Shown: positions 25,724 through 25,863 of the stretch, piece by piece
How the letters are laid out: every line of letters begins with the position of its first letter
How positions within the stretch are numbered: the first letter of the stretch is position 1
DNA from: Blasia pusilla
Lineage: Eukaryota
Length of the DNA: 64,000 bases
Direction: 5' to 3'
Assembly (NCBI GenBank): GCA_050084515.1
Contig: CM114271.1
Location: forward strand, 45,446,001 to 45,510,000
Translations under genes and position numbers: made by a program
Notes under the pieces: model-generated
Databases searched by the model: none
The model's input: only the letters and a program-made list of their open reading frames with translations
What the model was told of the DNA's origin: nothing

Positions 25724-25863
25724 ACATCTCAGACATATCCATTGTCGCGTGGGAACTACATCAAGAGGGGGGGGGGGGTCAGACATGACATATGCCACCC
25801 TCGAGAACAACCATCACATACCAACATGGTGGTTGCACCCCTCGCGGATCCATACAACATGCA
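25724..25863 (-). pseudogene. PHD finger at the C-terminus of the Gypsy polyprotein
   Basis: CMLYGSARGATTMLVCDGCSRGWHMSCLTPP/LDVVPTRQWICLRC (C4HC3; second Cys decayed to Tyr; frameshift in the 12-nt C run at 25767-25778). Confidence 0.85.

What the first reader, a model, noticed from the sequence alone, without database searches (positions are those of the whole stretch)
25724..25863. PHD finger in the chromodomain position of the same element: a chromatin reader paired with a DNA-methylation writer
Seen: after the integrase C-terminal domain the minus strand encodes CMLY..MLVCDGCSRGWHMSCLTPP/LDVVPTRQWICLRC, a C4HC3 PHD finger that the ORF track misses because of a frameshift in a 12-C run. 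Known: chromoviruses carry chromodomains at this position for integration targeting, and host DNMT3 enzymes use a PHD-like ADD domain to read the H3 tail. Inference: one polyprotein supplies both an H3-tail reader and a DNMT3-like enzyme, a possible self-contained target-and-methylate system.
Basis: partly seen in the sequence, partly recalled or inferred. Interest (0 to 1): 0.7.

Follow-up and report, generated by a model that had tools for sequence, protein, structure and literature searches.

The report
PHD-tipped integrase of methylase retrotransposon
This is a broken copy of a very abundant plant jumping gene whose integrase ends in a histone-reading zinc finger and which also carries a DNA methyltransferase, but a conserved leaky stop codon puts the two on different protein products, so they probably work at separate steps.

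Summary
The PHD finger is real (Pfam PF00628). This copy is dead: two frameshifts and a lost zinc ligand. It ends a 5'-truncated Ty3/Gypsy element of a family with thousands of loci in a land-plant genome, probably a liverwort. Family layout: Gag-protease-DNMT3-like-RT-RNaseH-integrase-PHD, with split direct repeats and 4-bp target duplications, like KnitGypsy-Dnmt3. PHD and DNMT co-occur (30 of 40 DNMT loci, 18 of 20 PHD loci), the PHD is fused to integrase and is under purifying selection. It lacks the H3K4me3 cage and keeps the H3R2-binding aspartate. New here: DNMT and RT share a frame but are split by a conserved stop in a tobacco-mosaic-virus-type readthrough context (TAG in 48 of 53 copies; also a second subfamily and 4 distant relatives). 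So the main product is Gag-protease-DNMT, and integrase-PHD is probably a minor readthrough product. Best reading: the PHD docks integrase on nucleosomes while Gag-level DNMT acts on the element's cDNA; it is not a DNMT3A/ADD-like unit. The scan noted this PHD before in two other genomes. New variant of a known kind.

The parts
25724..25863 (-). PHD finger (C4HC3 type; second Cys lost in this copy; frameshift in the 12-C run at 25767-25778)
   Evidence: sister copies
25864..25894 (-). Short linker between integrase C-terminal domain and PHD; second frameshift of this copy near 25886
   Evidence: low-confidence linker in the model of a sister copy
25895..26077 (-). Integrase C-terminal beta-rich (SH3-like, inferred) domain
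   Evidence: five short strands in the model
26081..27014 (-). Integrase H2C2 zinc domain, catalytic core and following helix (stops and frameshifts)
   Evidence: PF17921 E 1e-16, PF00665 E 5e-6; fold matches to foamy virus and Ty3 integrase
27399..27728 (-). RNase H
   Evidence: PF17917 E 3e-26
27850..28760 (-). Reverse transcriptase and its N-terminal extension (broken; limits approximate)
   Evidence: PF00078 E 2e-9
28797..28808 (-). Site of the family's conserved stop with readthrough context (TAG CAA CCA in the family; the stop codon reads AAG in this copy at 28803-28805)
29090..29980 (-). DNMT3-like C5 cytosine methyltransferase domain (broken in this copy)
   Evidence: PF00145 in sister copies; best solved matches DNMT3A/B/C
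29981..30436 (-). Protease-to-DNMT spacer; the copy is truncated at 30436
25642..25650 (-). Purine tract just before repeat B (plus-strand primer site, inferred)
25502..25634 (-). Terminal repeat B, ending in CA at 25503-25502; this copy has no A2-B2

Best explanation
The PHD finger is the C-terminal targeting module of the integrase of an old green-lineage Ty3/Gypsy clade. Shown: it is fused to integrase, ends the reading frame, is conserved by selection, and the family integrates with TG..CA ends and 4-bp duplications. Shown: the DNMT3-like domain ends ORF1 (Gag-protease-DNMT) at a conserved TAG followed by CAR-YYA, in frame with ORF2 (RT-RNaseH-integrase-PHD). Inferred: ribosomes read through that stop in a small share of cases, so DNMT is made at Gag level and packaged in excess, while integrase-PHD is scarce; the protease then cuts the products apart. 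Inferred: the DNMT methylates the element's own cDNA in or just out of the particle, and the PHD docks the integration complex on nucleosomes through the free H3 N-terminus (A1-R2), not through H3K4me3, which would steer insertions away from active promoters. The two domains serve one life cycle but at separate steps. The copy in the window is a dead remnant.
For: Fusion and co-occurrence. All 8 zinc ligands and the Trp invariant in 26 aligned proteins at 42-69% identity. PHD dN/dS 0.12 between the two subfamilies and about 0.05-0.06 between intact relatives. Nearest solved PHDs are CHD4, PHF12, DPF3, KDM5 PHD1, PHF21A, UHRF1; Asp after the third Cys in 35 of 37 relatives, no Trp two before the His in any; that Asp binds H3R2 in UHRF1 (PMC3214078, passages). 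Complex prediction with the genome's own H3 tail: weak support, 0.39 against best control 0.05, probably by likeness to solved PHD-H3 complexes. Stop: 48 of 53 copies TAG, next codon CAA 50, then CCA 50 or TCA 3; 5 of 6 subfamily-B loci; L092, L093, L094, L120; background 2 of 1,527 TAGs; motif defined in PMC3542737. Marchantia and Calypogeia ORF1 proteins end 95-99 residues after DNMT motif X, this family 101. A PHD-bearing Chlamydomonas Gypsy inserts 2.6 times more often between genes than chance (bioRxiv 2022.06.16.496473, section 17).
Against: No binding, readthrough or methylation was measured. The PHD of this clade lacks the acidic residue before the first Cys and has a neutral-to-basic loop, so H3 binding may be weak. 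KnitGypsy DNMT showed no activity in yeast, called inconclusive by the authors (PMC5890265). RNA depth is higher over ORF2 (about 10-41) than over the DNMT part (about 3-10) at 85% likeness, which a separate ORF2 RNA would also give. The stop is not universal: 11 of 15 metagenome loci with that region (decayed, apparently one family) lack the motif, and P0084 is one 2,811-residue frame. Insertion bias was not testable; the window copy lies about 2.6 kb upstream of a transcribed gene.
Confidence: 0.55

Rival explanations
1. Coupled target-and-methylate system: the PHD brings the DNMT to the insertion site, in an uncleaved readthrough product or in the same pre-integration complex, and the DNMT methylates the new copy or its flanks.
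For: Both domains are kept together from chlorophytes to mosses and liverworts; readthrough does give one chain with both; some relatives are one open frame (P0084, P0096); predicted H3 specificity resembles that of DNMT3 ADD (recalled).
Against: Conserved stop and about 1,080 codons between the domains; a protease motif in ORF1; DNMT changes place between lineages while the PHD stays on integrase; the Pleodorina protein P0016 keeps the PHD with both DNMT catalytic motifs gone.
Confidence: 0.2
2. The PHD is not a histone reader here: it stabilises the integrase or binds DNA or a host protein.
For: Net charge of the PHD core is zero to +6 in the closest relatives against down to -7 in distant ones; acidic K4-binding residue absent; the complex prediction is only weak.
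Against: The R2-binding Asp is kept in 35 of 37 relatives and the pocket before the invariant Trp is kept; the domain hangs on a flexible linker in the model.
Confidence: 0.18
3. ORF2 (RT-integrase-PHD) is made from its own subgenomic or spliced RNA or by re-initiation, not by readthrough; DNMT and PHD then never share a chain.
For: Higher RNA depth over ORF2 than over the DNMT part; a Met codon lies 14 codons after the stop in most copies.
Against: The six bases after the stop fit CAR-YYA in lineages whose DNMTs are only 43-47% identical while the encoded residues vary; no joint across the stop among the 15 listed (9 not shown); lower depth is also expected because ORF1 differs more between subfamilies (64% against 75%).
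Confidence: 0.15

Closest known systems
KnitGypsy-Dnmt3 of Klebsormidium nitens ('Gypsy-DNMT3'; de Mendoza et al. 2018, PMC5890265; read parts 1-4 of 7 and searched 3 supplements; Fig. 4c and the main supplement not seen)
   Same: Ty3/Gypsy domains, unpermuted DNMT3-like domain, DIRS-like A-coding-B-A-B repeats.
   Different: Host is a land plant; thousands of loci against 33 DNMT genes in Klebsormidium; DNMT ends ORF1 at a readthrough-type stop whereas the paper places it in the Pol ORF; the text does not mention a PHD (0 occurrences), though the unseen figure might show one.
Gypsy-7a_cRei and REM1 of Chlamydomonas reinhardtii (bioRxiv 2022.06.16.496473, section 17 read; REM1 only as cited there and recalled)
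   Same: Gypsy polyprotein with a PHD finger, proposed to limit harmful insertions.
   Different: No DNMT named for it; ordinary LTRs; relation to this clade not tested.
Chromoviruses (Neumann et al. 2019, PMC6317226, passages)
   Same: A chromatin-reader module at the integrase C-terminus.
   Different: PHD instead of chromodomain; predicted to read unmodified H3 rather than methyl-lysine; no PHD or DNMT among the eight domains that survey lists.
EpiLTRs (bioRxiv 10.64898/2026.05.21.726589, passages)
   Same: Reader plus cytosine methyltransferase in one LTR retrotransposon is already in print.
   Different: They use a chromodomain, a DNMT4-related enzyme and an adenine methylase, in Cymbomonas and Euglena.
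Type I (tobamovirus) UAG-CAR-YYA readthrough (PMC3542737, passage)
   Same: Exact motif match. Use of this motif by the SIRE1 retroelement is recalled, not from a call.
   Different: Here it falls after protease and DNMT, before RT.
DNMT3A/B ADD domain (recalled)
   Same: Zinc-finger reader of the unmethylated H3 tail in a DNMT3 context.
   Different: ADD is adjacent to the catalytic domain and controls it; here a canonical PHD lies about 1,080 codons and one stop away, on integrase.

Membership tests
PHD finger (PF00628) | C4HC3 zinc ligands and Trp before the last Cys pair | tested here: met
   Invariant in 26 aligned proteins; window copy itself has 7 of 8 ligands
PHD finger (PF00628) | Score above Pfam cut-off | tested here: met
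   26.4 bits window, 40-45 bits sister copies, cut-off 24
H3K4me3-reading PHD | Aromatic cage with Trp two residues before the zinc His (position recalled) | tested here: not met
   Gly in this family; Trp in 0 of 37 relatives with a pattern match, 4 of 41 had none
Unmodified-H3-reading PHD | Asp after third Cys (H3R2) | tested here: met
   35 of 37 relatives; role from PMC3214078
Unmodified-H3-reading PHD | Acidic residue before first Cys (H3K4me0) | tested here: not met
   Absent in this family and most of the ten closest relatives
Unmodified-H3-reading PHD | Binds the H3 tail | tested here: inconclusive
   Weak prediction 0.39 against control 0.05; needs an assay
Ty3/Gypsy LTR retrotransposon | Order Gag-protease-RT-RNaseH-integrase | tested here: met
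   Gag and protease judged from zinc knuckles, a DSG motif and match to Marchantia Mp_4g09160, no Pfam hit
Ty3/Gypsy LTR retrotransposon | TG..CA ends and short target duplication | tested here: met
   4-bp duplication exact in 9 of 13 copies with both ends, one mismatch in 3, 1 unresolved
Ty3/Gypsy LTR retrotransposon | Two identical LTRs and tRNA primer site | tested here: not met
   Split repeats A..B-A-B; sequence after A1 does not start with TGG in the copies shown
Gypsy-DNMT3 (KnitGypsy-Dnmt3 kind) | Unpermuted DNMT3-like domain with catalytic motifs | tested here: met
   Profile: DNMT3A E 3e-18, bacterial 8e-9, DRM2 3e-4; PC in 54 of 54 and E in 56 of 56 mapped copies, 40 loci chosen on that region
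Gypsy-DNMT3 (KnitGypsy-Dnmt3 kind) | DIRS-like split direct repeats | tested here: met
   also subfamily B and metagenome relatives
Gypsy-DNMT3 (KnitGypsy-Dnmt3 kind) | DNMT in the same ORF as RT | tested here: not met
   Same frame, conserved stop between
Gypsy-DNMT3 (KnitGypsy-Dnmt3 kind) | Common descent with the Klebsormidium element | not tested
   No protein named Klebsormidium came back
Chromovirus | Chromodomain after integrase | tested here: not met
   No Chromo hit; frame ends one residue after the PHD in 28 of 28 undamaged copies
Chromovirus | RT-RH-INT phylogeny inside the chromovirus lineage | not tested
   No reference set was available to the tree
DNMT3A-type ADD-catalytic unit | Reader next to and controlling the catalytic domain | tested here: not met
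   About 3.2 kb, RT, RNase H, integrase and a stop in between

The most novel reading that the evidence does not exclude
An ancient green-lineage Ty3 clade, alive in liverworts and mosses, makes pre-methylated insertions: a UAG-CAR-YYA readthrough loads each particle with Gag-level DNMT3 that methylates the cDNA before integration, a PHD on the scarce integrase places it in H3K4-unmethylated chromatin, and the integrase makes its ends from a stored palindromic B/A junction (CA-GC-TG) instead of from LTRs.
Probability: 0.25. Interest if true: 0.72.

Novelty: new variant of a known kind. Interest (0 to 1): 0.47.

Why it matters
What retrotransposon-borne DNMTs do is open (PMC5890265 discussion). 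The readthrough stop gives a testable answer about dose and place: DNMT at capsid level points to action on the element's own nucleic acid. Relatives in Marchantia polymorpha put the system in a model plant with chromatin maps, and contradict the statement that methylase-bearing transposons are missing from land plants (PMC6338049 passage, which names tracheophytes as its example). The PHD itself is a known kind of add-on.

Tried and rejected
Programmed frameshift at the integrase/PHD junction: suggested by the first 30 loci, rejected because that query included out-of-frame residues and so picked frameshifted copies; the modal state is in frame. The window's TAG at 28845-28847 and the one at 28938-28940 as family stops: rejected, the family reads CAG (35 of 52) and TGG (52 of 55) there. 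Permuted copies (A-B-A-internal-B) expected from a circle with two junctions: none among 13 copies with both ends; the circular contig L120 is what assembly of such repeats gives. Insertion preference: 21 of 42 flanks match another fetched locus, no background, no chromatin data. Run search: no RNA holder listed by the index; three raw runs were laid instead. Tree: quick search only, 2 rows left out, no outgroup. Literature: 10 searches returned no paper describing PHD plus DNMT3 in one Gypsy element, the readthrough stop, or the Marchantia gene ids; subscription journals, Repbase and figures were not searchable. Look-ups of earlier scan notes by place, by sequence and for readthrough or split repeats were blank. 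The last part of the script crashed and was rerun.

Full report
Observation. The minus strand at 25863-25724 encodes a PHD finger broken by a 12-C run. The longer piece passes the Pfam cut-off (26.4 bits, E 7e-6); sister copies score 40-45 bits. Upstream lie integrase, RNase H, RT and a methyltransferase, all with stops and frameshifts. The copy runs from 30436 (truncated) to a terminal CA at 25502 and is 87% identical to full-length sisters.

The family. Searches of the own genome (390 Mb, 26 contigs) gave 9,542 first-look candidates for the PHD and 7,024 for the DNMT; only 150 of each were scored, so these are rough counts. I fetched the 40 best DNMT hits after the window's own and the 20 best PHD hits after the query's own, 10 kb each. 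30 of 40 DNMT loci carry the PHD downstream; the other 10 also lack the integrase C-terminus (truncation or insertion). 18 of 20 PHD loci carry the DNMT upstream; the two others are internal deletions. No copy of 60 is intact; the longest frame is 745 residues. Integrase C-terminus to PHD is in frame in 39 of 45 mapped copies, a set that includes 20 loci chosen on that junction; in the unbiased DNMT-anchored set 8 of 30 PHDs are undamaged and all 8 are open at least 119 residues upstream. Full copies read A(480)-Gag-protease-DNMT-RT-RNaseH-integrase-PHD-B(135)-A-B, begin with TG, end with CA, and have 4-bp duplications (9 of 13 exact, 3 with one mismatch, 1 unresolved). A1 and A2 differ by 2.3-6.7% in 9 copies, with C/T differences at 12% of CG, 10% of CHG and 5% of CHH sites, as expected of methylated old insertions. 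A second subfamily (75% identity in pol, 64% in ORF1) has the same layout; 5 of 6 loci include the DNMT, the sixth is truncated.

Host and spread. A DELLA domain marks the host as a land plant. The nearest named relatives are Calypogeia fissa and Marchantia polymorpha (55-71% in the DNMT, 76-80% in integrase-PHD for the closest), then Sphagnum, Closterium, Coleochaete, and the chlorophytes Hariotina, Pleodorina and Tetraselmis; a liverwort host is inferred. A quick integrase tree groups this family with the liverwort and moss proteins (SH-aLRT 99) inside a clade (98) with Coleochaete (59 rows, 2 left out, no outgroup). In distant, chlorophyte-type relatives the DNMT lies between RNase H and integrase, in closer ones before RT; the PHD is always after integrase. 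The methyltransferase is DNMT3-like: profile E 3e-18 to DNMT3A against 8e-9 for the best bacterial enzyme and 3e-4 for Arabidopsis DRM2.

The PHD. All eight ligands and the Trp are invariant in 26 proteins. dN/dS is 0.124/1.05 between subfamilies (an upper bound, since dead copies add neutral change), close to integrase core (0.124/1.67) and DNMT (0.30/1.95); between intact relatives 0.074/1.61 and 0.086/1.37. A model of a natural 460-residue frame shows integrase domains, a beta-rich C-terminal domain, a flexible linker and a folded PHD, and matches foamy virus and Ty3 integrases. The nearest solved PHDs are CHD4, PHF12, DPF3, KDM5 PHD1, PHF21A, AIRE and UHRF1. The Asp that binds H3R2 in UHRF1 (PMC3214078, passages) is kept in 35 of 37 relatives; none has the cage Trp of H3K4me3 readers (position recalled); the acidic residue before the first Cys is missing in this family and its loop is not acidic (4 of 41 proteins gave no pattern match). 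Prediction with residues 1-30 of the genome's own H3 gave weak support: 0.39 against best control 0.05, runs agreeing in at least 82% of contacts, partner pLDDT at least 51; the mark was reached by 51 of 78 solved complexes and 2 of 108 mismatches, and passes under 0.60 are more often wrong than right unless likely beforehand. Many PHD-H3 complexes are solved, so the pass may be from memory.

The stop. Mapping stored proteins on the copies showed every interval to be modally in frame, but 0 of 15 modal-length DNMT-RT linkers were stop-free and 13 shared one stop. At that site 48 of 53 copies read TAG (1 TAA; the window copy AAG), followed by CAA in 50 and CCA or TCA in all 53. This is the UAG-CAR-YYA readthrough signal of tobamoviruses (PMC3542737, passage); 2 of 1,527 TAGs in the window have it. 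Subfamily B has it in 5 of 6 loci. Relatives from metagenome and genome contigs show two long frames joined by it: L093 (1,369 + 1,047 codons, TAG CAG TTA), L094 and L120 (TAG CAA TCA), and L092 (TAG CAA CCA). Marchantia and Calypogeia ORF1 proteins end 95-99 residues after DNMT motif X, this family 101; their DNA was not seen. Against generality: 11 of 15 such loci, decayed and apparently of one other family, lack the motif, P0084 is a single 2,811-residue frame, and de Mendoza et al. place the Klebsormidium DNMT in the Pol ORF.

Expression. Three stranded RNA runs of one study, of a coded organism whose reads splice the neighbouring glutamate synthase gene at its introns, cover the element in sense: depth about 10-41 over RT to PHD, 3-10 over the DNMT part, up to 17 over the host gene (85% likeness). 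Most reads are under 95% alike, so they come from other copies; those crossing the C-run mostly do not share the window's frameshift (19 of 23 in one run). The lower DNMT depth may reflect greater divergence, 3' bias or a shorter RNA.

Mechanism. Shown: fusion of PHD to integrase, selection on it, the ORF split, integrase-type ends. Inferred from retroelement biology: readthrough makes RT-integrase-PHD as a minor product, the protease separates the domains, Gag-level DNMT is packaged and meets the cDNA, and the PHD tethers the integration complex to the H3 N-terminus. A Chlamydomonas Gypsy with a PHD shows a 2.6-fold intergenic bias, which its authors ascribe to targeting or selection (bioRxiv 2022.06.16.496473, section 17).

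Comparison and novelty. Gypsy-DNMT3 with these repeats is published for Klebsormidium (PMC5890265; parts 1-4 of 7 read, Fig. 4c and the main supplement unseen and may show a PHD). PHDs in retrotransposons are known (PMC6673714 and bioRxiv 2021.11.30.470311, passages), and reader plus DNMT in one element is in a 2026 preprint (passages). Two earlier notes of this scan report the same PHD in other genomes. Not found in my 10 searches: the land-plant occurrence, the PHD-DNMT3 pairing, the readthrough stop and the conserved CA-GC-TG junction. Verdict: real feature, dead copy, new variant of a known kind, interest 0.47.

Noticed in passing
L035:8251-8261, L065:8816-8826, L093:8656-8666, L094:8235-8245, L120:7051-7061, L102:9227-9237: The internal B1/A2 junction is a near-palindrome, element end CA + 2 bases + element start TG, conserved in distant relatives; it looks like a stored integrase substrate or end template.
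   Followed up: partly
L043, L046, L084, L090 and window 25502: Short form A-internal-B without A2-B2 still has 4-bp duplications; it may come from B1 x B2 recombination or from unit-length integration.
   Followed up: partly
L037, L043, L068, L077, L080, L084, L087, L090: Many copies have large internal deletions with intact ends (non-autonomous derivatives).
   Followed up: partly
3' flanks of 42 copies: Weak target preference: A at first duplicated base in 25 of 42; third base after the duplication A in 29 and never G.
   Followed up: partly
P0020, P0029, P0032, P0041 against P0010, P0104, P0124: The DNMT sits between RNase H and integrase in chlorophyte-type relatives but before RT in streptophyte-type ones: relocation or two captures.
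   Followed up: partly
window 10385-22865 (-): Spliced, transcribed NADH-dependent glutamate synthase gene (named from recalled motifs); the element ends about 2.6 kb upstream of it.
   Followed up: partly
window 6010-8600 (+): Mitochondrial ADP/ATP carrier gene (named from recalled motifs).
   Followed up: no
window 32445-36941 and 44584-49086: Two inverted copies, 90-97% alike, of an element with an RT-like frame, probably a non-LTR retrotransposon; an older piece at about 1640-4190.
   Followed up: no
window 61779-63617 (+): Decayed Copia-like integrase region with a 140-base tandem duplication at 62667-62946.
   Followed up: no
window 25077-25214 (+): A second, older B-like repeat (73-78%) in the opposite orientation about 290 bases beyond the element's end.
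   Followed up: no
window 38610-38926: Four copies of a 56-base unit spaced 78-92 bases apart.
   Followed up: no
L119, L120: A record titled as an uncultured cyanobacterium holds an intact copy of this eukaryotic retrotransposon clade, most likely a binning contaminant.
   Followed up: no
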